Assembly: GCA_019057385.1 (NCBI GenBank) | Contig: JAHQJS010000006.1 | Span: 677,038 to 741,037 of the forward strand | Direction: 5' to 3' | Length of the DNA: 64,000 nucleotides | From: Candidatus Borrarchaeum weybense | GTDB lineage: Archaea; Asgardarchaeota; Sifarchaeia; Borrarchaeales; Borrarchaeaceae | Part shown: positions 404 to 12,280 of the stretch, one piece after another | Position numbering within the stretch: position 1 is the first letter of the stretch | Layout: every line of letters begins with the position of its first letter | The notes under the pieces: model-generated | The model's database searches: none | What the model saw: only the letters and a program-made list of their open reading frames with translations | Told to the model about the DNA's origin: nothing | Position numbers and translations under genes: made by a program

Positions 404-637
404 TCTTGTCCCTCAATCATATCAATTTGACCCTTAAGTTTAATTAGTAACTGTTTAGGTAATGAAACCTTTTTGTTAAGCGTTTAATTGAAGTACTTTG
501 TGCTGTTTGTTATTGTAAATGCCCAAAAATCGGAAAGAATATGCCGATGGAGAAAGTTTTAACAGTAACAATTTAAGTATTAGATCTTTATATGAGGCTG
601 ATGATGTAGTGCAAGAACATTGAGGAGGTGGGCGCTA

Positions 638-1453
638 ATTTCCACTGTCGAAAGAATGATAGTAGAGTCACGAATGCTTTGCTCTAAATGAATCACGGAA
701 GCGGATCTGATGGGGCTTGACATCGCAAGAATCACATATGTTGATGACACTGGTGAACACAGATTATTGGATAACCCGCTAAAAAGAGTAAATGGTCTCT
801 GGATAAAATGCAATATGAATAATTCTCAGAAGATCATAAAAAGTTGCGATTATTGGGAGATCGTTGACACGACTGCTTCATTTGCAGAAATTAGTGGTCA
901 CAGAATTCGATACAGAGAAACTCATCTGCAATACGATCCCTTGAGGAATATATCCTTATCTCTTAACATCTGTGTGTATTTTCCAAAGCAACCGTTCTTT
1001 GTGCTTGATTACATGATAAAAAATACTTCGAAAAACTCATCACTTACTGATGTTTCTCTTTATTGGCTCATAGACCTTGATATCGAGGGTAAGGAGAGTT
1101 ACAAAGATAATTTTGCACGGTACGATGATGACATAATTTACCAATACCATTCGCGATCTAATGTTCATGCGGGCTTCTGTAGTACAATTAAATCATCCCG
1201 GTATGAATGTAACAGTCCTTATGGACTCAGAATCAAATCACATCACCTTAACTTAGGAAACATCAACTTTCGAGGTCCTGATGACTGTTCAATTGGCTTA
1301 CAATGGGATTTTGGACAGCTATCGCCTCAAAAAACGATCAACTTACCAGTGGTTTTTGCAGCAGGTATGGATAAAACACATTTCCACTCGAACATGGAGC
1401 AAGGTATTGCGCTATTAAATAAAATAAAAAATACAAATGATTCCACCTCTTAA
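638..1453 (+). CDS. Candidate selenoprotein of unknown family (C-S-K-U motif, in-frame TGA 689-691); ORF track shows only 710..1453
   Basis: GGAGGTG at 624-630 followed by in-frame ATT 638, ATG 656, ATG 674; frame reads STVERMIVESRMLCSK(TGA)ITEADLMGLDIAR; SECIS-like hairpin at 1437-1472. Confidence 0.7.
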
Positions 1454-1472
1454 AGCCTCTTGAGGTGGGAGA
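1437..1472 (+). promoter_or_regulatory. Eukaryote-type SECIS element overlapping the stop codon of the candidate selenoprotein
   Basis: ATGA-TTCCACCTC-TT-AAA-GCCTCTT-GAGGTGGGA-GA: 9-bp stem (1441-1449/1462-1470), AUGA/GA core, AAA 11 nt after AUGA. Confidence 0.75.
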
Positions 1473-1528: not shown

Positions 1529-1957
1529 ATGGACATAGAAGGTTATGTATTTCCTGATGATCTCTATTATTCCGACCAGTTTTTATGGATTCGCATAGAA
1601 AGTGACAATTTGGCGATAATCGGACTCAATGAACTTGCTGTAAAAGCGGTTAAAGAGTTTGCGCTCATCGAAATCTTCTATCCAGTTGGGTATGAAATAA
1701 CTGCGGGGAAGCCAATAGGGGCATCGGATTCGTGGAAGGGCTCTTTAACTCTTTACAACCCAATTTCTGGTAAAATAGTAGAAGTGAATCAAGATGTAGA
1801 ATATGATCCTCAATTGGTTATAACAGATCCGTATGGAGCAGGATGGTTTTTTAAAATCTCACCTATTAATTTGCTTGCAGACAAAGAAGCGTTAATGAAG
1901 GGAGGAAGCCCAGAACTCGTTAAATGGGTGAAGGCTACTATAAAAAAGTTAGTTTAA
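1529..1957 (+). CDS. gcvH: Glycine cleavage H-like lipoyl carrier protein
   Basis: PDDLYYS..LWIR..AIIGL..GASDSWKGSLTLYNPISGKIVEVN..DPYGAGW; Lys at lipoylation position; ATG 1529 follows AGGAG (ORF track starts at 1460). Confidence 0.85.
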   Translation: MDIEGYVFPDDLYYSDQFLWIRIESDNLAIIGLNELAVKAVKEFALIEIFYPVGYEITAGKPIGASDSWKGSLTLYNPISGKIVEVNQDVEYDPQLVITDPYGAGWFFKISPINLLADKEALMKGGSPELVKWVKATIKKLV

Positions 1958-2002
1958 CATTGCTTTTCCTGGAGGCTATAACAAATTTCCTTTTATCGCT
2001 GT

Positions 2003-3337
2003 TTATGAGAGAGGATGTTTACTGAGAAGTTCATCTAATCGTTTTACAGTTGTGTTAATATCTGTTTTCTCTACTCCAATAGCAGCATTAATTGTAAGAT
2101 ATTGGGTTGGATATGTGTCATGGCATGTTCCAAAAGTAGAGTCTGCCTTAGGTAACCCGCGCGGTCCTGTTACTCGTAAAGTGTATAATTGCGCACCTAA
2201 TTTATGCGCGATTCTTGGTTCTGTAATTGTCATTGCTACAGCGATAGTACTATCTACTTCAAGTAAACGCTCTCCATGTTTTTCTGCCGTCTCTTCAAGT
2301 CTTGTTTTCAATAAATTATAGCATTCATTTTGTTGCTGTATTAATTCTCTATATCCATTCTCTCCTAATGATAGAATCGCGGCCAGAAATTGTACAACTG
2401 GTGCAGCAGTTGCACGTCCCGCGTATGAATGCGCTACTCTTTTAAGAAATTCTTCATCAGGTCCAGCTATAATAGATCCGCCAACAGGGCACAGAAAATT
2501 CTTGTCAGTAGATTGGATTATTGCATCTACACGTCCTTTAAAAATCGCGCTTCTTATCATCTTCATTATCACAGGTGATTGCACGCCATAAGCATTATTT
2601 ATTACATGTGGGATCCTCTTTTCTTTTGCTATTTTTGCTATTGAAATTACATCATCAGGCTGTCGTGGTGGGAAAAAGGTAGTTGTTGTCAAAATCGCAG
2701 AGGTGTGTTCATCTATTGCTGCTTCAACATCATTTGGATCAGAAATAACAGCATCACCGTCTAATTTACATTGTATAATTTTCGGTTGCAAATCAACAAG
2801 TGAAATACCGTTTAACGGTGATTCATGATCTATTCGAGGATAAACGACCTCTTGTCCTCCTGTAAGATCCCGTGCAACTTTTAATGCCAGACCAATGCTC
2901 ATACCAGTAGCTAGAGGGATGATGTATGCCCCTGAAATATTTTCAATTCCAAATTTTTTGAGTAAGTCTGTCGCAAGTCTGTTAGCGATCTGATACATTA
3001 AAGATCCGCCTGCTGCCTTTGGTTGAGGATCTATTAATACACCACTTCTTCCAACTCCATGATTAAATCCCGCAGCTAATTCTGAAACTAAAGGCGATGC
3101 AATTCTCGCTTCCCGTTCGCCGATTCGCGCCGCCTTAGGATCCTTATCTGTATCCATAGATGACAAAACCTTGAGCAATAATCTAATTGACTCATCAGAC
3201 CATCCCTCTTTTGGAAGTGTTCTTTGTTCAAAAAGCCTTTTTATAGGTTTTATTAGCGTTTCTTCCAAAACAATAAGACCACGATCCAGCATGTGAGGTG
3301 GTATTAATCCTAAAAGAAGTTCTTTTGGTAACTTCAT
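2003..3337 (-). CDS. spcS: O-phosphoseryl-tRNA(Sec) selenium transferase SepSecS
   Basis: IGEREAR, HGVGRSG..QPKAAGGS, NNAYG, QSTDKNF (PLP lysine), YAGRA motifs; 444 aa. Confidence 0.95.
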   Translation of the reverse strand: MKLPKELLLGLIPPHMLDRGLIVLEETLIKPIKRLFEQRTLPKEGWSDESIRLLLKVLSSMDTDKDPKAARIGEREARIASPLVSELAAGFNHGVGRSGVLIDPQPKAAGGSLMYQIANRLATDLLKKFGIENISGAYIIPLATGMSIGLALKVARDLTGGQEVVYPRIDHESPLNGISLVDLQPKIIQCKLDGDAVISDPNDVEAAIDEHTSAILTTTTFFPPRQPDDVISIAKIAKEKRIPHVINNAYGVQSPVIMKMIRSAIFKGRVDAIIQSTDKNFLCPVGGSIIAGPDEEFLKRVAHSYAGRATAAPVVQFLAAILSLGENGYRELIQQQNECYNLLKTRLEETAEKHGERLLEVDSTIAVAMTITEPRIAHKLGAQLYTLRVTGPRGLPKADSTFGTCHDTYPTQYLTINAAIGVEKTDINTTVKRLDELLSKHPLS

Positions 3338-3598
3338 AGGAATCCCCTATTATATGTTATATGGTACTATTAGATAGTTTTCTTGCTCTTCAAATCAAGA
3401 TATAGTTCATTATAGTTCATTGTAGTTTATAAGATAAACCTTTTAAACCCTAAACTGTAGAATCCACTCGAACAACTAAAATAATCATTAATCATTAGTA
3501 GAAAGAAATTTAAAATGCTAGGCTTTGTCGTTTGAGGATATTGTTTTGATGTTCAATGAACATTTTACTATAAGTAGATGATAAGAGAGTGAGCTGAA

Positions 3599-4738
3599 AT
3601 GACTTTAGAAGTTGAACTTAAACTAGGCCCATTTACAGATTTAAAGGCTGATGTTATTGATAAAGGAAAGTGTACTGGTTGTGGTAGTTGCGTTGCTGTC
3701 TGCCCAACTCAAGTTATAAAATTTATTGATGACATTCCAACTCTTCAAGAAGTTCCTGGGGAGATTCCTGAGGGGGAACCACCCGTAGGCAAATGTATTG
3801 AGTGTAAACTTTGTTATTTTGTGTGCCCTGTCACAGAATCACTTGAGCCGCGTATGCAAGAATTATTTGGTACAGAAGATGTTTTTGGTACTTATCTAAA
3901 TCTCTACAAAGCTAAAACTAAGGTACCTGAGATCGCCGAAGTCGCTCAAGATGGAGGTATAGTCTCCACAATCTTAGCATTTGCATTTCAAAAAGGACTC
4001 ATAGATGGAGCTATAGTCTCTGAAGCAAGTGAGGAGAACCCATGGGTTCCAAAACCAAAGATCATTACTTCATATGAGGAATTAATGAAATCTGCCGGTA
4101 CGCGTTACTCACTCAGTCCTAATATTATTTCCCTTGCCCAATATAGGGAAGTTGTTGAGGAGTTATTAGTGAAACATCCGGTAGGCGAAGATTGGCTACG
4201 ATTGGCGTTTGTTGGAACGCCTTGTCAAGCACATGGCATAAGAAAGATGCATAATGCCTTGGAAGGTGCGGATATCCGCCCAGCAAATTTAGTTGTTTTA
4301 AATATTGGACTATTTTGTATGGAAAACTTCGATGCGAAGAAGTTGCATCAACTTATCTTAGATAAGACAGGCGCGACCATCGATCAGATACGCAAAATGG
4401 ATATTAAAAAAGGCGCTTTGCACATCTTTCCAAAAGATGGAGGAGACGCAAAAACTATACCCCTAGAGGAGACTACAGAGGCTGTAAGAAGTGGCTGTCA
4501 TTCATGCGAAGATCTTACTGCTTGGTATGCAGATATAAGTGTTGGAAGTATAGGCACGCCCGGTGGCTGGTCAACCGTCTTCGTCCGTACACAAAAAGGC
4601 AAAGATATCTTTGAAGGCGCCGTTAGAGCGAACATGATCAAAAAAGAGTCTCTTACAGAGAAAGGAGAGAGTTTATTACGCCGATTAACAAGTAAAAAAC
4701 AAGAAACAGGCAAAAAATACAAAGAAACTCATGTCTGA
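3599..4738 (+). CDS. Coenzyme F420 hydrogenase/dehydrogenase beta subunit (FrhB family) with N-terminal ferredoxin
   Basis: CTGCGSCVAVCP, CIECKLCYFVCP, AQDGGIVS, AGTRY, VGTPCQ, IGLFCMENF, CHSCED, ADISVGSIG. Confidence 0.9.
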   Translation: MTLEVELKLGPFTDLKADVIDKGKCTGCGSCVAVCPTQVIKFIDDIPTLQEVPGEIPEGEPPVGKCIECKLCYFVCPVTESLEPRMQELFGTEDVFGTYLNLYKAKTKVPEIAEVAQDGGIVSTILAFAFQKGLIDGAIVSEASEENPWVPKPKIITSYEELMKSAGTRYSLSPNIISLAQYREVVEELLVKHPVGEDWLRLAFVGTPCQAHGIRKMHNALEGADIRPANLVVLNIGLFCMENFDAKKLHQLILDKTGATIDQIRKMDIKKGALHIFPKDGGDAKTIPLEETTEAVRSGCHSCEDLTAWYADISVGSIGTPGGWSTVFVRTQKGKDIFEGAVRANMIKKESLTEKGESLLRRLTSKKQETGKKYKETHV

Positions 4739-4782
4739 TTAATTTCATCATTTAATTAAATGTTTTAGTGGAGTGACGGTTC

Positions 4783-6780
4783 ATGAGTGAAGAAGTACTT
4801 CAAAAAAGCAAAGATGAAGAACCCCGAATTGGCGTTTACATTTGTCATTGTGGAAAGAACATAGCAGGAACAGTAGATAGCGAATCAGTTGCTGAATATG
4901 CAGCAAAATTACCAAATGTTGTAACTGCTAAGGATTATTTGTATACATGTTCTGAGCCTGGACAAAATATGATTCGGGATGATATCAAAGAACTTGGATT
5001 AAACCGCGTTGTTGTTGCGGCTTGTAGTCCAAAAATGCATGAAAATACCTTTAGAAAAACGATTACTGATTCTGGTCTAAATCCTTATGTTCTTGAAGTT
5101 GCAAATATTCGGGAGCAATGTAGCTGGTGTCATATGAATGAAAAAGAAAAAGCTACCGATAAAGCAAAGGACCTAGTACGTATGGCTGTTTTTAGAGCAA
5201 GCGACCTTGAACCACTAGAAAAGATGACTATACCTGTGGATAAATCAAGTTTAGTTATTGGCGGTGGAATTGCAGGAATCGAAACTGCGTTAGATATGGC
5301 TGATGCAGGCCTAAAGGTCTACTTAGTTGAGAGGGAGGTCAGCATTGGAGGAAAAATGGCGCAGTTAGACAAGACATTCCCAACACTCGACTGTTCTGCT
5401 TGTATTCTAACGCCAAAAATGGTTTCAGCATCTCGACATCCTAATATTACGCTTCTCACCTATTCTGAGGTAAAGCATGTAGATGGATATGTCGGAAATT
5501 TCAAGGTAACTGTTGAGAAAAAACCTCGCTATGTTGACATAGACGCTTGTACTGGGTGTGGCGAATGCGCCATTGTATGCCCAGTGAGAATTCCTAACGA
5601 ATTTGATATGAACCGCGGCAAGAGAGCGGCAATTGACGTTCCATTTCCTCAAGCAGTCCCGCTAAAATACGCGATTGATTCTGAGCACTGTCTTTACTTT
5701 AAAAACAAACTATGCACCACATGCAAACAGTTATGTCCTAAAAATGCCATAGATTACGATCAAGAGCCAGAAATAGTTGAATTAACTGTTGGTTCAATAG
5801 TAGTCGCCACGGGTTGCGATACCTTTGATGCTTCTAAGATCCCAGAACTAGGATATGAACGATATCCCAACGTCATTACGAATATGGACTTTGAACGGAT
5901 AGTTAATGCAGGCGGTCCGACGGAGGGCCACATCCTTAGACCTTCGGACAACAAGGAACCTAAGTCGGTAGCCTTTATTCAATGTGTAGGCGCACGAGAC
6001 GAAGAAAACGAATTGTACTGTTGCAGATATGGATGCATGGCTGCAATGAAGCAAGCGTATTTGTTAAAGGAGAAACTCGGACCTGACACAGATGTTTACA
6101 TCTGTTACATTGATCTCCGCTCCTTTGGTAAAGGATACGAAGAATTTTATCGAAAAATAAGGAACATGGGTGTCAAATTCATCAGAGGACAGCCATCTGA
6201 GATCTTACAAAATCCAGACGGATCACTAGTCTTCAATGTATACGATTCCAATATAGCTCGTCATATGGAAATAACTGTTGATATGGCTGTTCTTACCCTC
6301 GCATTAACACCACCTAAAGGAATTGATGAACTCCAACAAATCTTACGAATCTCAAGAGGTGCCGATGGTTACTTCCTAGAGGCCCACGTCAAATTACAGC
6401 CAGCAGAAACGCATACAAGAGGAATTATGCTTGCTGGAACTTGTATGGCACCTAGAGATATCACTGATACGGTATCACACGCAGCTAATGCTGCTGCCAA
6501 GGCAATTGATCTATTAGCTGCAGGTGAAGTTGAAATTGAACCGATTACTGCATGGGTTGACAAAGATATATGCAGTGGTTGTGGTGTGTGCCTTGATGTA
6601 TGTCCTTACTCTGCTATTAAAGGTGTTGATGTCGAAGGACACAGACGTGCGGAAGTAATTGATGCCCTGTGTACAGGTTGCGGCACATGTGGAGCTGCTT
6701 GTCCATCAAATGCAATAACAAATAGACATTATACTAGAAAACAACTGATGGATCAGGTAATAGCGGCTTTGGAGACTTAA
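4783..6780 (+). CDS. hdrA: Heterodisulfide reductase subunit A (Cys form)
   Basis: [43 protein letters not shown], ferredoxin motifs; 665 aa. Confidence 0.95.
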
Positions 6781-6794
6781 AGGAGGAAAATGTC

Positions 6795-7247
6795 ATGACA
6801 GAAGCTGTTATGGTAAAAAAGGAAAAAATCGTAGAAAACTTTGAACCCAAGATCGTAGGTTTCCTTTGTAACTGGTGTTGCTATGGTGGCGCTGATATGG
6901 CTGGTCTTGGTAGAATGCAGTATCCGACTAACATTAGAATCATAAGAGTCATGTGCTCTGGACGCGTTGACCCTGAGTTTATTCTCGAAGCATTTCGAAG
7001 AGGAGCCGATGGTGTGTTCATCGGAGGATGCCACCTAGGAGATTGCCACTACGTCGAGGGCAATTACAGGACTCAAAGACGAGTTATTTTGCTCAAGGAG
7101 TACTTAAGTTCAATGAACATTAATCCAGAGCGTCTTCGTTTGGAGTGGGTTTCTGCTTCTGAGGGTGAGAAATTCACGAGAGTAGTAAAGGATTTCGTTA
7201 AAGTATTGAAGGAGTTAGGGCCCTTTGATGGCTCCGATAAAGAATAA
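6795..7247 (+). CDS. vhuD: F420-non-reducing hydrogenase [2Fe-2S] subunit D (Cys form)
   Basis: [37 protein letters not shown]. Confidence 0.95.
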
Positions 7248-7405
7248 AGAAGTCACAAATTATCTGTAATGAACAATAATGATGAATGATGATATTTTGG
7301 CGTTCGTCATTAACAATAATGAAGATTTAAATAAACAAAACATGTTAATGAAAGGAAAAGAATGTGAAAAGGTAACATAATAATGAATGGAAGAGGTTGA
7401 TTTTT

Positions 7406-8374
7406 ATGCCATTGAAAGTAGCTTTTTTGCAGCTTGCGAGCTGCTGGGGTTGTCATCAGAGTCTTGTGGACATGCATGAGAAACTCCTAGATGTAGTGCC
7501 CCACTTGGAAATTGTCCATTGGGCGGCTGTGGTCGACTACAAGTACAAAGACCTTGAAGCCCTTCCTGATGGAGAAATTGACATCGGTTTTGTCGAAGGC
7601 TGTAGCAGAACAGAAGAAGACGTGCATCATCTCAAAGTACTGCGGAAGAAATCAAAAGCGGTAATTGCATTCGGAACTTGCTCTTGTTTCGGTGGAGTTT
7701 ATGGCATGGCAAACTCATATTCAATTGAAGCTTGCAAAGAACGAAAATTCCTCACCGCAGATACAGTTGTTGAGGGAACAATCCCTACGCATGATGTACC
7801 TGATTTCGAACCATTCATCATTCCTAACGACGAGATAGTTCCAGTGGATCTTCATATCTGGGGATGTCCGCCCGAGACTGAAGTCATTCTCAAGGTCGTT
7901 GGTGGTGTTCTTGAACATGGACTCGGCACGGTTGTTAGCATCTTACAAGAGCACGGAGAAGAATACCTCTGGTCTGAGGTATTGGGGTTCCCGGTGAAAA
8001 CTCAATGTGATGAATGTGAGCGTACTCGTGAGGAGAAAAAACTTACAGTGATAAAACGAGATTTCGAAGGCATTCCTGACCCAGAAAAATGCCTTCTAGA
8101 ACAAGGTTACATTTGTATGGGTCCTGCCACTCGTGCGGGATGTGGTGTGAGATGTCCGAACGCTGGTGTACCTTGTACTGGATGCTGGGGTCCTGCGCCT
8201 AACGTCAGAGATCAAGGATCTAAGATGATGAGTGCATTAGCTAGTATTTGTAAAGATATTGACCCTGAAGATTTCCGGAAAATGGTGCCTGATACTGTAG
8301 GAACATTTTACAAGTTCTTTTTAGCTAAAGCACTCCTCCCACGTATGGTAAAAGAAAAGAGTATGGAGGTATAA
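7406..8374 (+). CDS. vhuG: F420-non-reducing [NiFe(Se)] hydrogenase small subunit
   Basis: SCWGC, FGTCSCFGG, GCPP, CDEC, CLLEQGYICMGPATRAGC..CTGCWG. Confidence 0.92.
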   Translation: MPLKVAFLQLASCWGCHQSLVDMHEKLLDVVPHLEIVHWAAVVDYKYKDLEALPDGEIDIGFVEGCSRTEEDVHHLKVLRKKSKAVIAFGTCSCFGGVYGMANSYSIEACKERKFLTADTVVEGTIPTHDVPDFEPFIIPNDEIVPVDLHIWGCPPETEVILKVVGGVLEHGLGTVVSILQEHGEEYLWSEVLGFPVKTQCDECERTREEKKLTVIKRDFEGIPDPEKCLLEQGYICMGPATRAGCGVRCPNAGVPCTGCWGPAPNVRDQGSKMMSALASICKDIDPEDFRKMVPDTVGTFYKFFLAKALLPRMVKEKSMEV

Positions 8375-8379
8375 GAAAT

Positions 8380-9687
8380 ATGCCTACAATTAAGATCGAA
8401 CCCGTAACACGGTTGGAAGGACATTTAAATGTAACAATAGAATTAACAGATGATGGGAAAGTAAAAGATGCGCAAGCACGGGTGACACTTACACGTTTCT
8501 TCGAAAAGTTTTTGGAAGGTCGCTTGATGGAACATGCGCCTCGTATTGTGCCACGTATCTGTGGTATTTGCCCTGAAGCACATCACTTAGCTTCTATAAA
8601 GGCAGTAGAGGACGCATGGGATATTACACCCCCCATTGCTGCCCACAAACTACGAGAACTTCTACTTCAAGCTAAAATGATTTCAAGTCATGCAATCCAC
8701 TTTTATGCTTTGGCAGCGCCTGACTTTATCTTTGGTCCATTTGCAGATCCAGCAGTGCGCAACTTGATTGGCATTATTCAGAATATGCCTGAAGAAGCAA
8801 AGAAGGCTATTGAGCTCATGCGATTCGGACAAGACCTCTGTCATACAATCGGAGGTAGAGCTGTACATCCAGTTACTGCAATCCCAGGAGGACAATCCTA
8901 TCGATTTTCAGAAGAATCACGGGACGAATACTTAAAGAGAGTGGATCGTATCATCGAGTTATGCGAATGGAGTCTTGAACTCGGGAAAAAAGTAACAACT
9001 GATTATCTTGATGTTGCGACAAAGGTTGGGGTGCTCCCAACGCATTATGTTGGTCTGGCAAATAATGGAGTTCATAGTTACTTTGATGGAACAGTGCGCG
9101 TAATGAACCCCGAAGGCAAAATTGTCGAGGATTTCAAACCACAAGACTACAAGGACTACATGGGCGAATATGTGACCGATCACAGTTACACAACACATGT
9201 CTTCTACAAACCCGCTGGCTACCCTGCAGGAATTTGGAGAGCAAACACCTTAGCTAGAATCAATGTTGTTGACAAAATGGAAACACCGATAGCACAAAAA
9301 GAATTGGAACTCTTCAGAGAAACTTTAGGACGTCCAAGTCACCATACATTTGCATATCACTGGGCCCGTCTCATCGAGATGCTTGAATCTGCAGAAAAAA
9401 CTAAGATCCTATTGGAAGATCCAGATATCGTCAGCACAGATATTAAATTAGCCGATATCGAGCCCAAAGAAGGCGAAGGTGTAGGTATTGTTGAAGCACC
9501 TCGCGGAACGCTTACCCACAACTATTGGTCTGATGCGAACGGAGTAATAACGAAAGCTAATCTCATTGTAGCGACGAACCACAATCTCCACGCAATTGAA
9601 GTCGGATTAAAACAACTGGCTAAGAAAGTTTTCGAAGAAGGAATCGTAAACGAACTTAAATTACCAGAGCCTATGGTCAAAACATAA
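8380..9687 (+). CDS. vhuA: F420-non-reducing hydrogenase large subunit lacking the C-terminal Ni-binding motif (split type)
   Basis: EPVTRLEGH, RICGICPEAH, EAPRGTLTH; ends ...PEPMVKT with no DPCxxC, which is supplied by the next small gene. Confidence 0.92.
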   Translation: MPTIKIEPVTRLEGHLNVTIELTDDGKVKDAQARVTLTRFFEKFLEGRLMEHAPRIVPRICGICPEAHHLASIKAVEDAWDITPPIAAHKLRELLLQAKMISSHAIHFYALAAPDFIFGPFADPAVRNLIGIIQNMPEEAKKAIELMRFGQDLCHTIGGRAVHPVTAIPGGQSYRFSEESRDEYLKRVDRIIELCEWSLELGKKVTTDYLDVATKVGVLPTHYVGLANNGVHSYFDGTVRVMNPEGKIVEDFKPQDYKDYMGEYVTDHSYTTHVFYKPAGYPAGIWRANTLARINVVDKMETPIAQKELELFRETLGRPSHHTFAYHWARLIEMLESAEKTKILLEDPDIVSTDIKLADIEPKEGEGVGIVEAPRGTLTHNYWSDANGVITKANLIVATNHNLHAIEVGLKQLAKKVFEEGIVNELKLPEPMVKT

Positions 9688-9755
9688 ACAAAGAGAGGAC
9701 GAAGTACAAGAGAGAAATTAAAATTATTAATGAAAATTTAAAGAGAGGCGATTAT

Positions 9756-9905
9756 ATGGTTGAAATTGATGAGAAACTTCTTAACCTGTTCGAAATGTTA
9801 ATACGCTGTTATGACTGTTGAATAGCTTGTAGTGCTCATCTCATTGTCAAAGATGAGAAGGGTAACGTACTTGCAAAGAAGGATATGGTCATTGCAACAG
9901 GATGA
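9756..9905 (+). CDS. vhuU: Selenocysteine-containing hydrogenase subunit U (49 aa, Sec at TGA 9819-9821)
   Basis: MVEIDEKLLNLFEMLIRCYDC(TGA)IACSAHLIVKDEKGNVLAKKDMVIATG; matches the RxYDxUxxCxxH motif missing from VhuA; GAGG upstream; SepSecS nearby. Confidence 0.92.
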
Positions 9906-9938
9906 TCTGATCGACAAAAAAGTATGAAGTCGACAGGA
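9902..9938 (+). promoter_or_regulatory. Candidate SECIS element of vhuU (core AUGA coincides with stop codon)
   Basis: ATGA-T-CTG(A)TCGAC-AAAAAAGTATGAA-GTCGA-CAG-GA; AAA 10 nt after AUGA; 8-bp stem with bulges. Confidence 0.55.
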
Positions 9939-10037
9939 ACTGGGCCCATATGCGGGGCTTACATATCCTTTCCTTCTAATTAATTTACACTTTAAGTTCA
10001 TTTATTCACATATTCAAACTACAGGAGGCTGTTCCCC

Positions 10038-10556
10038 CTGTCACCACAAGTATTAGAGACAAAAAAAGCTGACCCAAAAGCATTAGAAAAAATTCGCCAA
10101 GCTGTAGGCGAGGCAGAGCCTGGTTATTGTTACCAGTGCATAAAATGTACTAGCGGATGTCCTATTTCTAGGCAGTTAGACGGTTTCAACCCACATGTTT
10201 TTGTGGCAATGGCAAAAATGGGATTTATCGACGAGCTTATCAATGATAAAACTATCTGGGCTTGCGTATGGTGTATGACTTGTAAGGAAAGATGTCCTCA
10301 AGACGTTTCACCAATGGAGGTTATCAGATCACTCACTCAACTCGCATTTGAACGAGGTATTGAACCTCCTACAATAGGTTTGAAATCCCAATTTGGAAAT
10401 ATCATTACAACTGGTTTTGCAAGAGATTTTACATGGGTTGAAGGAGAACGTGAGGATATAGATGATCTTCCCGAGTTACCGAAACCTCGTCTGGATAAAA
10501 TAAAAGCAATGTTGAAAAAGACTTCCCTAGCAAGGTGGATGGAAAAGGAGGAATAA
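10038..10556 (+). CDS. hdrC: Heterodisulfide reductase subunit C (probable CTG start)
   Basis: First cluster motif CYQCIKCTSGCP lies upstream of the track ORF (10203) in the same frame; only CTG 10038 follows GGAGG 10024-10028; second motif CVWCMTCKERCP. Confidence 0.88.
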   Translation: MSPQVLETKKADPKALEKIRQAVGEAEPGYCYQCIKCTSGCPISRQLDGFNPHVFVAMAKMGFIDELINDKTIWACVWCMTCKERCPQDVSPMEVIRSLTQLAFERGIEPPTIGLKSQFGNIITTGFARDFTWVEGEREDIDDLPELPKPRLDKIKAMLKKTSLARWMEKEE

Positions 10557-10558
10557 AC

Positions 10559-11443
10559 ATGGATTTGGCACTTTATTTAGGTTGCACAGTACCTACCTAT
10601 GGCTATGACTATGAACTAGCAATACGCAAAGTTTTACCAAAATTTGATATTAATTTGATTGACCTTCCTGAAGCTGGCTGTTGTGGTCTTCCATTTGGAG
10701 ATCTTGATAGTCTTGCATGGTTGACGATGAGTGCAAGAAATATGGCTCTCGCAGAAGAAAAGAATCTGGATATTCTTGCTCTATGTAATGGATGCTACTT
10801 ATCTCTGGAAGAAGTAAAACATTTCCTAGCAGAAGATCCAGAACTTAAGGAGCAAGTAAATCAGTTACTTGCCGAAGAGGATTTAGAATACAAAGGAACT
10901 AACGGCAACTATTTAGTTCTAGAGATTCTACATGACGTAATTGGTCTTGAAAAGATAAAACAGTCCGTCACAAAACCATTGACTGGTTTTAGAATTGCAG
11001 CCCACTATGGATGCCATGCAATACGACCAAGCAAACTACCAGGACGCCCTGACGATTCAGAAACCCCCATAAAGATGGAACGAATTCTTGAAGCCATAGG
11101 TGCAGATACAATGGATTATCCTGAACGACTTGCGTGTTGCGGAACGAAAGAATATTCATATGATCCGGAAATCACATTAAAACTTGGATATTCAAAACTC
11201 AAAGCCATAAAAGAATATGGATTCGATGGCCTCGCAACAATTTGTCCTCTTTGTCAATACGTCTACGATTATAGCCAAGGATCGATGGCCGCCACATTTA
11301 AGACCCAGATACAAGTTCCCGTACTCTACTTAATCCAATGGATGGGGCTTGCCATGGAAATGGATCCCGAAGAAGATCTTGGATTAGAATTCATGATTCA
11401 CACAAGTCCAGTGGAACCTATTCTTGAAAAACTGCAGATTTAA
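10559..11443 (+). CDS. hdrB: Heterodisulfide reductase subunit B
   Basis: Two CCG domains: YLGC, GCCG, CNGC, HYGCH, ACCG, CPLC. Confidence 0.93.
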   Translation: MDLALYLGCTVPTYGYDYELAIRKVLPKFDINLIDLPEAGCCGLPFGDLDSLAWLTMSARNMALAEEKNLDILALCNGCYLSLEEVKHFLAEDPELKEQVNQLLAEEDLEYKGTNGNYLVLEILHDVIGLEKIKQSVTKPLTGFRIAAHYGCHAIRPSKLPGRPDDSETPIKMERILEAIGADTMDYPERLACCGTKEYSYDPEITLKLGYSKLKAIKEYGFDGLATICPLCQYVYDYSQGSMAATFKTQIQVPVLYLIQWMGLAMEMDPEEDLGLEFMIHTSPVEPILEKLQI

Positions 11444-11461
11444 TTATTGGGAGGACTAAAT

Positions 11462-12019
11462 ATGCCGATTACCATCACGTATGATGAAAAACGCATTTTT
11501 ATAATGTTGGACGATTTGTATTACTGGTCGGGTGCAATGGGTTCACATCCAGGACATATTTGGATGTCAACATATATAATTCCCAAAATTAGAGTTGGTA
11601 TCGATGATTTTGGTGTGTATGAAGCAGGTGAGATTAAGTATATACGCCTTCCCTCTGAAGCTGGCGGCGAAGTTAAGCAAGGAAAAGTCTTTGGAACATT
11701 AGAGGCTGGTAAATATGTTGGACCACTTATTTCACCCATTAGTGGTAAGATCGTTGAAGTAAACCAAAAAATCAAAGAACAGCCTTTACTCTTGAATGAA
11801 GATTGCTATGACGAAGGCTGGCTCATAAAAGTTGAACCATCTAATTTGGACGAAGAAATTAAGAACCCGAACATAATTTATAGCGAAAAGGCGATTGAAG
11901 AATGGATGAAAGGCGAATTTGAAAAATTTAAAGTTGCAGGAACCGTACGTGTTGTTAACCGAACAGAATACGGTGCATGGAAAATAATAGCACGCGAAGA
12001 AAGCAGAAGAAAGGCATAA
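11462..12019 (+). CDS. GcvH-family lipoyl carrier (LbpA-like) with C-terminal extension
   Basis: RVGIDDFG..GEIKYIRL..GTLEAGKYVGPLISPISGKIVEVN..DCYDEGWL; last gene of hdr operon. Confidence 0.85.
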   Translation: MPITITYDEKRIFIMLDDLYYWSGAMGSHPGHIWMSTYIIPKIRVGIDDFGVYEAGEIKYIRLPSEAGGEVKQGKVFGTLEAGKYVGPLISPISGKIVEVNQKIKEQPLLLNEDCYDEGWLIKVEPSNLDEEIKNPNIIYSEKAIEEWMKGEFEKFKVAGTVRVVNRTEYGAWKIIAREESRRKA

Positions 12020-12280
12020 AAGCCACATAAAGCGCCTTCCAACCTCTTGTTTCATAACTATTTTTTTGCTTTTTTGAGTAATTCTTGACTTCTTTTTAAC
12101 ATAATTTATTTGATATTCACTATTTCAGAATGTAATCTAAAAAAATGTAATTTTCTTAACCTCGTTGCTTTCGGTAAGTCGACAAAAATTTCATTTGCGG
12201 AGAGTTTTTCTAGTTCTGCGTAGAGTTTGCCCAGAAAATTTTAAATCTTAAACCTAGACTAAGTATTTAACCACAATAAA

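What the first reader, a model, noticed from the sequence alone, without database searches (positions are those of the whole stretch)
1529..12019. FrhB-Hdr-[NiFeSe]Vhu operon ending in a lipoyl carrier: possible H2/F420-driven lipoyl-protein reductase system
Seen: a contiguous frhB-like/hdrA/vhuD/G/A/U/hdrC/hdrB operon whose last gene (18 bp after hdrB) is a GcvH-family protein with EAGKYVGP around the lipoyl lysine; a second GcvH sits beside SepSecS and the CxxU candidate; no gcvP/T/L in the window. Known: in sulfur oxidisers sHdr works with GcvH-like LbpA proteins; MvhADG-HdrABC bifurcates electrons to ferredoxin and a disulfide. Inference: in this archaeon the HdrB disulfide substrate may be protein-bound lipoamide rather than CoM-S-S-CoB, with F420 as an additional donor/acceptor, all co-localised with Sec synthesis.
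Basis: partly seen in the sequence, partly recalled or inferred. Interest (0 to 1): 0.8.

Follow-up and report, generated by a model that had tools for sequence, protein, structure and literature searches.

The report
Hydrogenase-Hdr operon ending in lipoyl carrier
An Asgard archaeon that lacks the methanogens' coenzymes ends its hydrogenase/heterodisulfide-reductase operon with a small lipoic-acid carrier of the type that works with Hdr-like enzymes in sulfur oxidisers. This carrier is a concrete, testable candidate for the long-unknown disulfide that Hdr uses outside methanogens.

Summary
One co-oriented gene string runs frhB-like, hdrA, mvhD/vhuD, vhuG, vhuA, vhuU (in-frame TGA at the Ni-ligand position), hdrC, hdrB. 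A GcvH-family gene starts 18 bp after hdrB, and a second one lies beside SepSecS.

The genome (4.18 Mb, 100% complete by markers) has 8 GcvH-family genes but no gcvP, gcvT, mcrA or comA. Five of the 8 lie within 4 kb of a CCG-domain (HdrB/GlcF-type) gene (expected 0.4, p about 3e-5).

In a tree, both window carriers fall with Hdr-associated LbpA-type proteins and away from every gcvP-adjacent H protein (split support 100/98). They share the LbpA-like E-[ST]-G-K-[WY] motif but lack the LbpA cysteine pair.

The linkage is not unique. In 80 related loci (Asgard, Bathyarchaeia, other Thermoproteota, Syntrophia):
- a lipoate ligase is adjacent in 43;
- an HdrB or GlcF is within 5 kb in 32;
- gcvP is never within 8 kb.

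Best reading (about 0.6): the lipoylated carrier is the dithiol/disulfide partner of HdrB, replacing CoM-S-S-CoB. No biochemistry exists, and the complex prediction gave no verdict.

The scan has reached the same idea before on other genomes. In the papers I could search, it appears only as a speculation for Culexarchaeia.

The parts
1529..1957 (+). LbpA-type GcvH-family lipoyl carrier no. 2 (142 aa; the ORF is open from TTG 1460). The putative lipoyl lysine is K70 (codon 1736-1738), in the motif S-D-S-W-K-G.
   Evidence: Pfam GCV_H 3.3e-23. Translation. Falls on the LbpA side of the tree with own-genome paralogs (96/98).
2003..3337 (-). SepSecS (O-phosphoseryl-tRNA(Sec) selenium transferase), divergent from the frhB-hdr operon.
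   Evidence: Pfam SepSecS 9e-123. The same arrangement occurs on a genus-level JGI contig.
3599..4738 (+). FrhB/FdhB-family subunit with an N-terminal 2x[4Fe-4S] ferredoxin domain. Candidate F420 (or other flavin/Fe-S) entry module.
   Evidence: Pfam FrhB_FdhB_N, FrhB_FdhB_C and Fer4. Seven paralogous places in the genome. CofE is present.
4783..6780 (+). HdrA, long form (665 aa, FAD plus several Fer4 domains), Cys form with no in-frame stop.
   Evidence: Pfam. About 20 paralogous places in the genome.
6795..7247 (+). MvhD/VhuD.
   Evidence: Pfam FlpD 4.5e-57.
7397..8374 (+). VhuG/MvhG, [NiFe] hydrogenase small subunit (start uncertain).
   Evidence: Pfam Oxidored_q6. The ortholog is called at 300 aa on the JGI contig.
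8380..9687 (+). VhuA, truncated [NiFe(Se)] hydrogenase large subunit (435 aa) that lacks the C-terminal Ni-binding motif.
   Evidence: Nearest solved chains are 9sfi_g (418 aa, 464 bits) and MvhA 5odc_F (410 bits).
9757..9906 (+). VhuU, a 49-codon peptide carrying the C-terminal Ni-binding motif, with TGA (9820-9822) read as selenocysteine. The second TGA (9904-9906) is the stop.
   Evidence: Translation with TGA=U gives D-C-U-I-A-C-S-A-H in frame. SECIS not confirmed.
10038..10556 (+). HdrC (2x[4Fe-4S]). The start is unresolved: the first canonical start (10203) lies after the first Cys motif, and AGGAGG sits at 10023-10028.
   Evidence: Translation and sequence. The ortholog is 171 aa with Fer4 families.
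10535..11443 (+). HdrB with two CCG domains. All ten cluster cysteines are invariant in the alignment.
   Evidence: Pfam CCG x2. Alignment A2 invariant C17, C49, C50, C84, C87, C160, C201, C202, C237 and nearly invariant C240. Nearest solved chains are methanogen HdrB 9sfi_C, 7bkb_B and 5odc_B.
11462..12019 (+). LbpA-type GcvH-family lipoyl carrier no. 1 (185 aa). The putative lipoyl lysine is K84 (codon 11711-11713) in L-E-A-G-K-Y-V-G-P. It has a lineage-specific C-terminal strand plus basic helix (residues about 160-184).
   Evidence: Pfam GCV_H 2.9e-28. Below the NCBIfam GcvH cut-offs. K84 is invariant in A1. AF2 model pLDDT 84.8 with the H-protein fold. Falls on the LbpA side of the tree.
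12055..12095 (+). Oligo-T runs after the carrier gene, the likely end of the transcription unit.
   Evidence: Read directly from the sequence. This is inference only.

Best explanation
The operon encodes a methanogen-type, flavin-based electron-bifurcating hydrogenase/heterodisulfide reductase. It consists of Vhu [NiFeSe] AGU, VhuD and HdrABC, plus an FrhB-family module.

Its thiol/disulfide partner is the lipoyl group of the small LbpA-type carrier encoded as the last gene, not CoM-S-S-CoB.

Proposed electron path:
- H2 is split at VhuAU.
- Electrons pass through VhuG and VhuD to the HdrA flavin.
- One branch reduces ferredoxin.
- The other runs through HdrC to the two non-cubane clusters of HdrB. 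There the lipoyl-lysine arm of the carrier is reduced to dihydrolipoyl.

Lipoamide (about -290 mV) lies close to H2, so the reaction should be near-reversible. It could also run backwards as confurcation, making H2 from reduced ferredoxin plus dihydrolipoyl carrier.

FrhB would let F420 feed or drain the same flavin. The other LbpA-type paralogs next to GlcD/GlcF-type enzymes suggest a shared pool of protein-bound dithiol/disulfide carriers.

Shown: gene content, order, family placement, conserved lysine, conserved synteny, and failure to find gcvP/T, McrA and ComA. Inferred: lipoylation, contact with HdrB, direction of electron flow, and the role of F420.
For: - Gene order, an 18-bp gap, the carrier's own RBS and oligo-T runs after it.
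- HdrB keeps all cluster cysteines and is nearest to methanogen HdrB. VhuA is nearest to Vhu/Mvh large subunits.
- No gcvP, gcvT, McrA or ComA was found in a genome that is 100% complete by markers.
- There are 8 GcvH-family genes. Five lie within 4 kb of a CCG protein (expected 0.40, p = 3e-5). This includes a second cluster, GlcD-GlcF-HdrA/MvhD-carrier-HdrC-HdrB.
- HdrC-HdrB-carrier is kept in three genus mates.
- Other Asgard families show the carrier next to HdrA-MvhD-HdrB, or GlcF-GlcD-HdrB-HdrC-HdrA-carrier-LplB-LplA on one strand.
- In 80 GTDB loci of this carrier type, a ligase lies within 200 bp in 43, HdrB or GlcF within 5 kb in 32, and gcvP within 8 kb in 0. Bathyarchaeia repeat HdrA-MvhD-HdrC-HdrB-MvhG-MvhA-HycI-carrier-LplA.
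- The tree split (100/98) puts both window carriers with Hdr-associated LbpA-type proteins and apart from all gcvP-adjacent H proteins.
- The shared motif is E-[ST]-G-K-[WY], the lysine is invariant, and pI is higher than in canonical H proteins.
- Lipoylation genes are present: LipS2-x-LplA-LplB, plus an LplAB-type ortholog of the carrier-adjacent ligase.
- The literature states that the Asgard Hdr substrate is unidentified (PMC11291895).
- LbpA is genetically essential for sHdr (PMC6067878).
Against: - There is no direct evidence that the carrier is lipoylated or touches HdrB.
- In this window no ligase is adjacent to either carrier.
- About half of the related loci with full flanks (18 of 38) have no CCG protein within 5 kb. 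The carrier is therefore not an obligate Hdr-operon gene.
- With lipoamide at about -290 mV, the driving force for bifurcation from H2 is small (my estimate from textbook potentials).
- ComDE and the CoB pathway were not searched, so the absence of CoM/CoB is not fully shown.
- The genome also has a 2-oxoacid dehydrogenase E2, so lipoylation has other clients.
Confidence: 0.6

Rival explanations
1. The carrier acts as in the sulfur-oxidising sHdr-LbpA system. It would hold or present sulfane sulfur (persulfide) to the Hdr active site, so the operon couples H2 to sulfur or polysulfide chemistry rather than to a simple dithiol/disulfide couple.
For: The carriers fall with LbpA-type proteins and share their lysine motif. 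[quoted passage not shown]
Against: - The LbpA cysteine pair is absent from all clade C members.
- No DsrE, TusA or rhodanese was seen among the Pfam-scanned neighbours here or in L074 and L102.
- HdrA is the long, MvhD-linked methanogen type, not the short sHdrA seen in the reference sHdr clusters.
- The hosts are anaerobes that are not known sulfur oxidisers (record titles).
Confidence: 0.12
2. The carrier is not an Hdr substrate. It would be a lipoyl protein with another job that is merely co-transcribed or co-regulated with redox genes. Possible jobs are thiol-based antioxidant defence (as H protein with OsmC in Trichomonas, or GcvH-L in Firmicutes) or lipoyl relay to the E2 protein.
For: - Orphan H proteins have such roles elsewhere (cited in the Kumpel et al. 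preprint; GcvH-L structure 5a35 matched weakly).
- Many related carrier-ligase pairs stand without Hdr nearby.
- The genome has an E2 that needs lipoylation.
- A separate clade sits with DGC, thioredoxin and ArsR genes.
Against: - Repeated, independently arranged linkage to CCG-domain enzymes occurs in several phyla and inside operons.
- No SirTM, macrodomain or OsmC was seen among the scanned neighbours.
- The relay model does not explain five LbpA-type paralogs.
Confidence: 0.2
3. It is an ordinary glycine-cleavage H protein whose partner genes lie elsewhere or were missed by the assembly.
For: It has a Pfam GCV_H match and the H-protein fold. Most Asgard genomes searched, including one genus mate, do have gcvP.
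Against: - It scores below the NCBIfam GcvH cut-offs.
- The canonical E-S-V-K-A motif is replaced.
- It is separated from all gcvP-adjacent H proteins at 100/98.
- Where gcvP exists, a different, canonical H gene sits beside it.
- No gcvP or gcvT was found in this genome.
Confidence: 0.03

Closest known systems
sHdr-LbpA-sLpl(AB)/LipS1-S2 system of sulfur oxidisers (Hyphomicrobium denitrificans, Thioalkalivibrio, Aquifex, Sulfolobaceae; Cao et al. 2018, PMC6067878; Tanabe et al. 2023, PMC10332631)
   Same: - A GcvH-like lipoyl carrier is encoded with HdrB/HdrC-type CCG proteins.
- The carrier falls on the same side of the family tree and shares the G-K-W type lysine motif.
- Relatives carry a dedicated lipoate ligase beside the carrier.
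- The genome uses the LipS-type lipoate assembly route.
   Different: - Here the partner is a methanogen-type HdrABC with MvhD and a [NiFeSe] hydrogenase, plus FrhB, in a strict anaerobe.
- The two conserved LbpA cysteines are absent.
- No sulfurtransferase genes were seen.
- No ligase is adjacent in this window.
- The proposed role is redox carrier for H2/ferredoxin bifurcation, not sulfur oxidation.
MvhADG-HdrABC / VhuAGUD-HdrABC of methanogens (PDB 5ODC, 7BKB, 8RVU, 9SFI)
   Same: - Subunit set and order.
- Split Vhu-type large subunit with a Sec-bearing VhuU.
- All HdrB cluster cysteines are kept.
- HdrB and VhuA are nearest to these solved chains.
   Different: - McrA and ComA were not found, so CoM-S-S-CoB is unlikely.
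- An FrhB-family gene heads the operon.
- An LbpA-type lipoyl carrier ends it.
Ehe cluster of Culexarchaeia with GcvH (Kohtz et al. 2022, PMC9723716)
   Same: A GcvH gene lies within a hydrogenase/HdrB cluster of a non-methanogen that lacks full CoM/CoB synthesis. The authors speculate that GcvH coordinates the disulfide for HdrB.
   Different: That cluster is a membrane-bound group 4 hydrogenase with SdhA and CdhA. No family analysis, ligase linkage or cross-phylum survey was given. Here the complex is the soluble group 3c type, in an Asgard archaeon.
Canonical glycine cleavage H protein (GcvH)
   Same: Same fold and the same position of the lipoyl lysine.
   Different: - Different motif.
- Below the equivalog cut-offs.
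- Different clade.
- No P or T proteins in the genome.

Membership tests
Canonical GcvH (glycine cleavage H protein) | H-protein fold with the lipoyl lysine at a beta-hairpin tip | tested here: met
   AF2 model pLDDT 84.8. TM (target) about 0.9 to the T. thermophilus, pea and E. coli H proteins. K84 lies between strands 76-82 and 86-90. The profile aligns K to the H-protein lysine.
Canonical GcvH (glycine cleavage H protein) | Score above the curated equivalog cut-off (TIGR00527 / PRK01202) | tested here: not met
   77.9 bits against 115.85, and 89.8 bits against 117.
Canonical GcvH (glycine cleavage H protein) | E-S-V-K-A-x-S-[DE] motif and acidic pI | tested here: not met
   Carrier no. 1 has L-E-A-G-K-Y-V-G-P (pI 5.4). 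Carrier no. 2 has S-D-S-W-K-G-S-L. Canonical rows have ESVKA and pI 4.1-4.9.
Canonical GcvH (glycine cleavage H protein) | P and T proteins encoded in the genome | tested here: not met
   PF02347 and PF01571 gave no match in the genome, which is 100% complete by markers.
Canonical GcvH (glycine cleavage H protein) | Groups with gcvP-adjacent H proteins in a tree | tested here: not met
   It lies on the opposite side of a 100/98 split from all 8 gcvP-adjacent rows.
LbpA lipoate-binding proteins (sHdr partners) | Strictly conserved lipoyl lysine | tested here: met
   K84 is invariant in 21 clade C sequences and in all 24 rows listed.
LbpA lipoate-binding proteins (sHdr partners) | Groups with Hdr-associated LbpA rather than with GcvH | tested here: met
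   A 33-row side holds both window carriers and 10 Thermoprotei proteins. I identified those 10 as LbpA by four features: Cys7/Cys145, an adjacent LplA, an sHdr-ordered cluster 17-19 kb away, and a separate gcvP-adjacent GcvH in the same genome.
LbpA lipoate-binding proteins (sHdr partners) | [quoted passage not shown] | tested here: not met
   Carrier no. 1 has a single Cys115 and carrier no. 2 has none. No clade C member has the pair. Cao et al. note that some archaeal LbpAs also lack it.
LbpA lipoate-binding proteins (sHdr partners) | Encoded in or next to an hdr-like cluster | tested here: met
   It starts 18 bp after hdrB. The cluster, however, is methanogen-type HdrABC-Vhu, not sHdr.
LbpA lipoate-binding proteins (sHdr partners) | Accompanied by a dedicated lipoate ligase and LipS1/LipS2 | tested here: inconclusive
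   The genome has LipS2-x-LplA-LplB and three more LplA-family genes, but none is near the window. A ligase lies within 200 bp of the carrier in 43 of 80 related loci. Which ligase serves these carriers is unknown.
LbpA lipoate-binding proteins (sHdr partners) | Accompanied by sulfurtransferases (DsrE, TusA, rhodanese) and a role in sulfur oxidation | tested here: not met
   None was found among the Pfam-scanned genes of the window operon or of L074 and L102. The function itself is not testable here.
Vhu/Mvh-HdrABC bifurcating complex | Group 3c-type [NiFe] large and small subunits, MvhD, long HdrA, HdrC, and HdrB with two CCG motifs | tested here: met
Vhu/Mvh-HdrABC bifurcating complex | Selenocysteine in a separate VhuU peptide | tested here: inconclusive
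   An in-frame TGA sits at the Ni-ligand position, followed by I-A-C-S-A-H, and SepSecS is nearby. No SECIS was found by Rfam, and the fold of the 3' spacer is not better than shuffles.
Vhu/Mvh-HdrABC bifurcating complex | CoM-S-S-CoB as the substrate (host makes CoM/CoB and has Mcr) | tested here: not met
   MCR_alpha and ComA were not found in the genome. ComDE and the CoB pathway were not searched.

The most novel reading that the evidence does not exclude
LbpA-type lipoyl proteins are the general 'heterodisulfide' of Hdr complexes outside methanogens (Asgard archaea, Bathyarchaeia, other Thermoproteota, Syntrophia and relatives). They would form a pool of protein-bound dithiol/disulfide electron carriers that connects H2/ferredoxin/F420 bifurcation by Hdr-Vhu with GlcD/GlcF-type hydroxyacid dehydrogenases. 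The sulfur-oxidising sHdr-LbpA pair would then be one specialised offshoot of this older partnership.
Probability: 0.4. Interest if true: 0.9.

Novelty: new variant of a known kind. Interest (0 to 1): 0.78.

Why it matters
What HdrABC reduces or oxidises in organisms without CoM and CoB has been an open question since these genes were found in Asgard archaea, Bathyarchaeia and syntrophic bacteria. Metabolic models of Asgard archaea simply write 'unknown heterodisulfide' (PMC11291895). That includes models of hydrogen exchange used in scenarios for the origin of eukaryotes.

A small, easily expressed lipoyl protein encoded inside the operon gives a defined molecule to test. If it holds:
- it fixes the redox potential of the missing couple (about -290 mV);
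- it predicts a near-reversible H2/ferredoxin/dithiol machine suited to syntrophy;
- it ties the sulfur oxidisers' sHdr-LbpA system to the methanogen-type enzyme.

Tried and rejected
- Complex prediction of HdrB (alignment A2) with the carrier (A1) gave no verdict: ipSAE 0.00 in both runs and the controls were not run. It counts neither way.
- The search for related loci with the broad carrier alignment A1 found no stretch conserved enough to search with. I repeated it with six typical members (A3).
- Rfam gathering scan of the whole window gave no match, so there is no SECIS or other RNA family.
- The fold of the vhuU 3' spacer was not better than shuffles (z = -0.46).
- LipA (TIGR00510) gave only a 27.7-bit radical-SAM match. 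The lipoyl synthase is of the LipS type instead.
- Dihydrolipoyl dehydrogenase gave a best match of 327.5 bits, below the 408.8 cut-off, on another contig. The flavoprotein beside the canonical-type H paralog on C5 scores best as CoA-disulfide reductase/NADH oxidase-like, not Lpd.
- Strict LbpA membership was rejected because the cysteine pair is missing.
- The canonical GcvH reading was rejected (see the membership test).
- A GcvH-L/SirTM-type stress operon was rejected because no sirtuin or macrodomain genes are nearby.
- Two alignment calls failed because two carrier ORFs (L039, L050) contain an in-frame stop. Those rows were left out of A1.
- Literature searches for this linkage in Asgard archaea or Bathyarchaeia found only the Culexarchaeia speculation and the sHdr papers. 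The library lacks most subscription journals.

Full report
**What is there**

The window is G000:C6:677038-741037, from a 4.18 Mb, 8-contig genome that is 100% complete by markers. A close homolog of the carrier is named Promethearchaeota in NCBI, so the organism is an Asgard archaeon.

ORF listing and Pfam give one co-oriented string:
- FrhB-family protein with an N-terminal ferredoxin domain (3599-4738)
- HdrA, long form (4783-6780)
- MvhD/VhuD (6795-7247)
- hydrogenase small subunit (7397-8374)
- truncated large subunit (8380-9687)
- HdrC (ends 10556)
- HdrB (10535-11443)
- GcvH-family protein (11462-12019)

Between vhuA and hdrC lies a 49-codon ORF (9757-9906). It reads D-C-U-I-A-C-S-A-H if the TGA at 9820-9822 is selenocysteine. 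That is the C-terminal Ni-binding motif of a split Vhu-type [NiFeSe] hydrogenase.

VhuA is nearest to a 418-residue Vhu-type chain (9sfi_g, 464 bits) and to MvhA of 5ODC. HdrB is nearest to the HdrB chains of solved methanogen complexes. It keeps all ten cysteines of the two non-cubane clusters.

The carrier gene has GGAGG and an ATG 18 bp after the hdrB stop, and oligo-T runs follow it. A second GcvH-family gene (1529-1957) lies 45 bp from SepSecS (2003-3337, minus strand).

I could not confirm a SECIS. The first Fe-S motif of HdrC lies upstream of the first canonical start codon.

**The carriers are not glycine-cleavage H proteins**

- The genome has eight GCV_H genes but no gcvP or gcvT.
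- Carrier no. 1 scores below both NCBIfam GcvH cut-offs.
- Its AlphaFold model (pLDDT 84.8) has the H-protein fold, with K84 at a hairpin tip. It also has an extra C-terminal strand and basic helix.
- Most other Asgard genomes searched do have gcvP (29 of 41, including genus mate G004). There a different H gene sits beside it.

I built a tree of 65 family members. They came from 17 Asgard genomes, database hits and Thermoprotei genomes.
- A split with 100/98 support separates two sides.
- One side has 32 rows. It holds every gcvP-adjacent H protein, a bacterial H protein and a DGC/ArsR-linked type.
- The other side has 33 rows. It holds both window carriers, three more paralogs of this genome, most Hdr- or GlcDF-linked Asgard copies, and ten Thermoprotei proteins.

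I identify those ten as LbpA for these reasons:
- Each of the genomes I examined has two of them beside LplA genes.
- They lie 17-19 kb from a CCG protein; in the two genomes I examined further (G064, G083) that protein sits in a cluster ordered like sHdr (HdrB, HdrC, gap, short HdrA).
- In the three genomes I checked, a separate gcvP-adjacent GcvH lies elsewhere.
- One of the two types carries Cys7 and Cys145, has pI about 9, and reads E-S-G-K-W-A-G-P. Cys7 and Cys145 are the positions mutated in Thioalkalivibrio LbpA2 (Kumpel et al. preprint).

The Asgard clade has the same kind of motif, E-[ST]-G-K-[WY]-[VT]-G, instead of E-S-V-K-A. Its lysine is invariant and its pI is higher than in canonical H proteins. 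It has no cysteine pair.

**Linkage to CCG enzymes**

The genome has 27 CCG-domain proteins. It also has about 20 HdrA and 16 MvhD places. Five of the eight carriers lie within 4 kb of a CCG gene (expected 0.40, p = 3e-5), and six lie within 10 kb.

Contexts of the other paralogs:
- GlcD-GlcF-HdrA/MvhD-carrier-HdrC-HdrB
- carrier-AsnC-GlcD-GlcF-GlcD-GlcF
- GlcF-HEAT-HEAT-ArsR-carrier
- a canonical-type copy beside a CoA-disulfide-reductase-like flavoprotein, 3.5 kb from HdrCB
- ArsP-thioredoxin-DGC-DGC-carrier
- one copy in a housekeeping context

HdrC-HdrB-carrier is kept in three genus mates and on a JGI contig that also keeps the SepSecS-side carrier.

In 40 further carrier loci from 16 Asgard genomes, LbpA-type copies are far more often near Hdr or GlcDF than the other types. 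The counts are 13 of 22 against 3 of 28 (Fisher p = 5e-4). Kin are not independent, so this overstates. One Asgard locus reads LplA-LplB-carrier-HdrA-HdrC-HdrB-GlcD-GlcF on a single strand.

**Beyond Asgard**

A scan of GTDB species genomes with six typical members found at least 505 relatives. The best 80 come from Baldr-, Odin-, Jord-, Borr-, Frey-, Atabey- and Promethearchaeota, many Bathyarchaeia, Nitrososphaeria, Desulfurococcales, Syntrophia, Thermodesulfobacteriota and Thermacetogeniaceae.

In these 80 loci:
- a lipoate ligase lies within 200 bp in 43;
- HdrB or GlcF lies within 5 kb in 32 (20 of the 38 loci with full flanks);
- a [NiFe] large subunit lies within 5 kb in 14;
- gcvP is never within 8 kb.

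At least ten Bathyarchaeia loci repeat HdrA-MvhD-HdrC-HdrB-MvhG-MvhA-x-carrier-LplA; in the one locus I scanned (L102) x is a HycI protease. Syntrophia and delta-type bacteria show carrier-HdrC-HdrB-HdrA-MvhD.

**Supporting genome features**

- Lipoylation capacity exists: LipS2-x-LplA-LplB, three further LplA-family genes and no LipA.
- McrA and ComA are not found.
- CofE is present, so F420 is plausible.
- An E2 of a 2-oxoacid dehydrogenase also exists.

**Mechanism**

The best-supported reading is that the lipoyl arm of the carrier is the thiol/disulfide partner of HdrB in a Vhu-HdrABC bifurcating or confurcating complex. FrhB would be an extra F420-linked port.

Lipoamide is at -0.29 V (quoted in Cao et al.). 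Taking H2 at about -414 mV and ferredoxin at about -500 mV (textbook values, my knowledge), the overall reaction is only slightly exergonic and so reversible. That would suit the H2-producing, syntrophic lifestyles proposed for these lineages.

This part is inference. Lipoylation, contact with HdrB and direction of flow are untested.

**Known and new**

The sHdr-LbpA partnership is established genetically (PMC6067878). One paper speculated that a GcvH in a membrane-hydrogenase/HdrB cluster of Culexarchaeia might coordinate the unknown disulfide (PMC9723716). An Asgard paper leaves the Hdr substrate unidentified and mentions gcvH only beside methyltransferase genes (PMC11291895). I found no paper describing the carrier clade, its ligase linkage or its placement with LbpA. 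The library is incomplete.

This scan has reached the same idea on other genomes before. I read those notes after my own survey, and they are not independent evidence.

I file the finding as a new variant of a known kind: an LbpA-type carrier joined to the methanogen-type, hydrogenase-linked Hdr in an Asgard archaeon. Distinctive features here are a Sec-type Vhu, an FrhB module, five LbpA-type paralogs and loss of the glycine cleavage system.

Noticed in passing
window 620-1456 (+): The frame of ORF 710-1453 (247 aa, no Pfam family) stays open upstream through a single TGA (689-691), giving C-S-K-U. It ends 6 bp before the ORF that holds carrier no. 2. A candidate selenoprotein may therefore be co-transcribed with a lipoyl carrier, next to SepSecS.
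   Followed up: partly
window 10023-10203 (+): The first C-x-x-C-x-x-C-x-x-x-C-P motif of HdrC lies upstream of the first ATG/GTG/TTG (10203). AGGAGG at 10023-10028 is followed only by CTG codons (10029, 10038). The start is either non-canonical or there is a sequence error.
   Followed up: partly
G000 whole genome; G004:C120:47607-50370: This genome lacks gcvP and gcvT. Genus mate G004 has gcvP next to a canonical H gene. This points to recent loss of glycine cleavage while all non-canonical carriers were kept.
   Followed up: partly
G000:C4:1068156-1068518 (L029); also L041, L045, L053, L056, L061, L119: A separate GcvH clade recurs in Asgard genomes next to one or more DGC-domain proteins, often with ArsR. 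In this genome it also sits with a thioredoxin and an ArsP permease. This may be a distinct lipoyl-thiol module, perhaps linked to metalloids.
   Followed up: partly
G000:C5:417447-419187 (L026 8367-10248): The only canonical-type H paralog of this genome sits beside a CoA-disulfide-reductase/NADH-oxidase-like flavoprotein, a DRTGG protein and an ADP-forming acetyl-CoA synthetase. HdrCB lies 3.5 kb away.
   Followed up: partly
G000 whole genome: There is a large expansion of Hdr parts: about 20 HdrA places, 16 MvhD, 10 HdrB, 27 CCG-domain proteins and 7 FrhB-like, but only two [NiFe] hydrogenase large subunits of this type.
   Followed up: partly
L050 8058-8594 (G040, Freyarchaeia-1, C1:2075975-2076367) and L039 8018-8563 (Atabeyarchaeia-1): Two LbpA-type carrier ORFs continue past an in-frame stop into a C-terminal tail. 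In L050 the tail holds two cysteines. This could be a selenocysteine, a read-through or a miscalled end.
   Followed up: no
G000:C4:326910-330557 (L028 3911-7558): The transcription termination factor FttA (KH, beta-CASP, RMMBL domains) is interrupted by an intein with LAGLIDADG and HTH domains, giving 1215 aa in all.
   Followed up: no
G000:C7:198072-200108 (L011): A 2-oxoacid dehydrogenase E2 (dihydrolipoamide acyltransferase) lies directly upstream of one LplA-family ligase. It is a second, conventional client for lipoylation in this anaerobe.
   Followed up: partly
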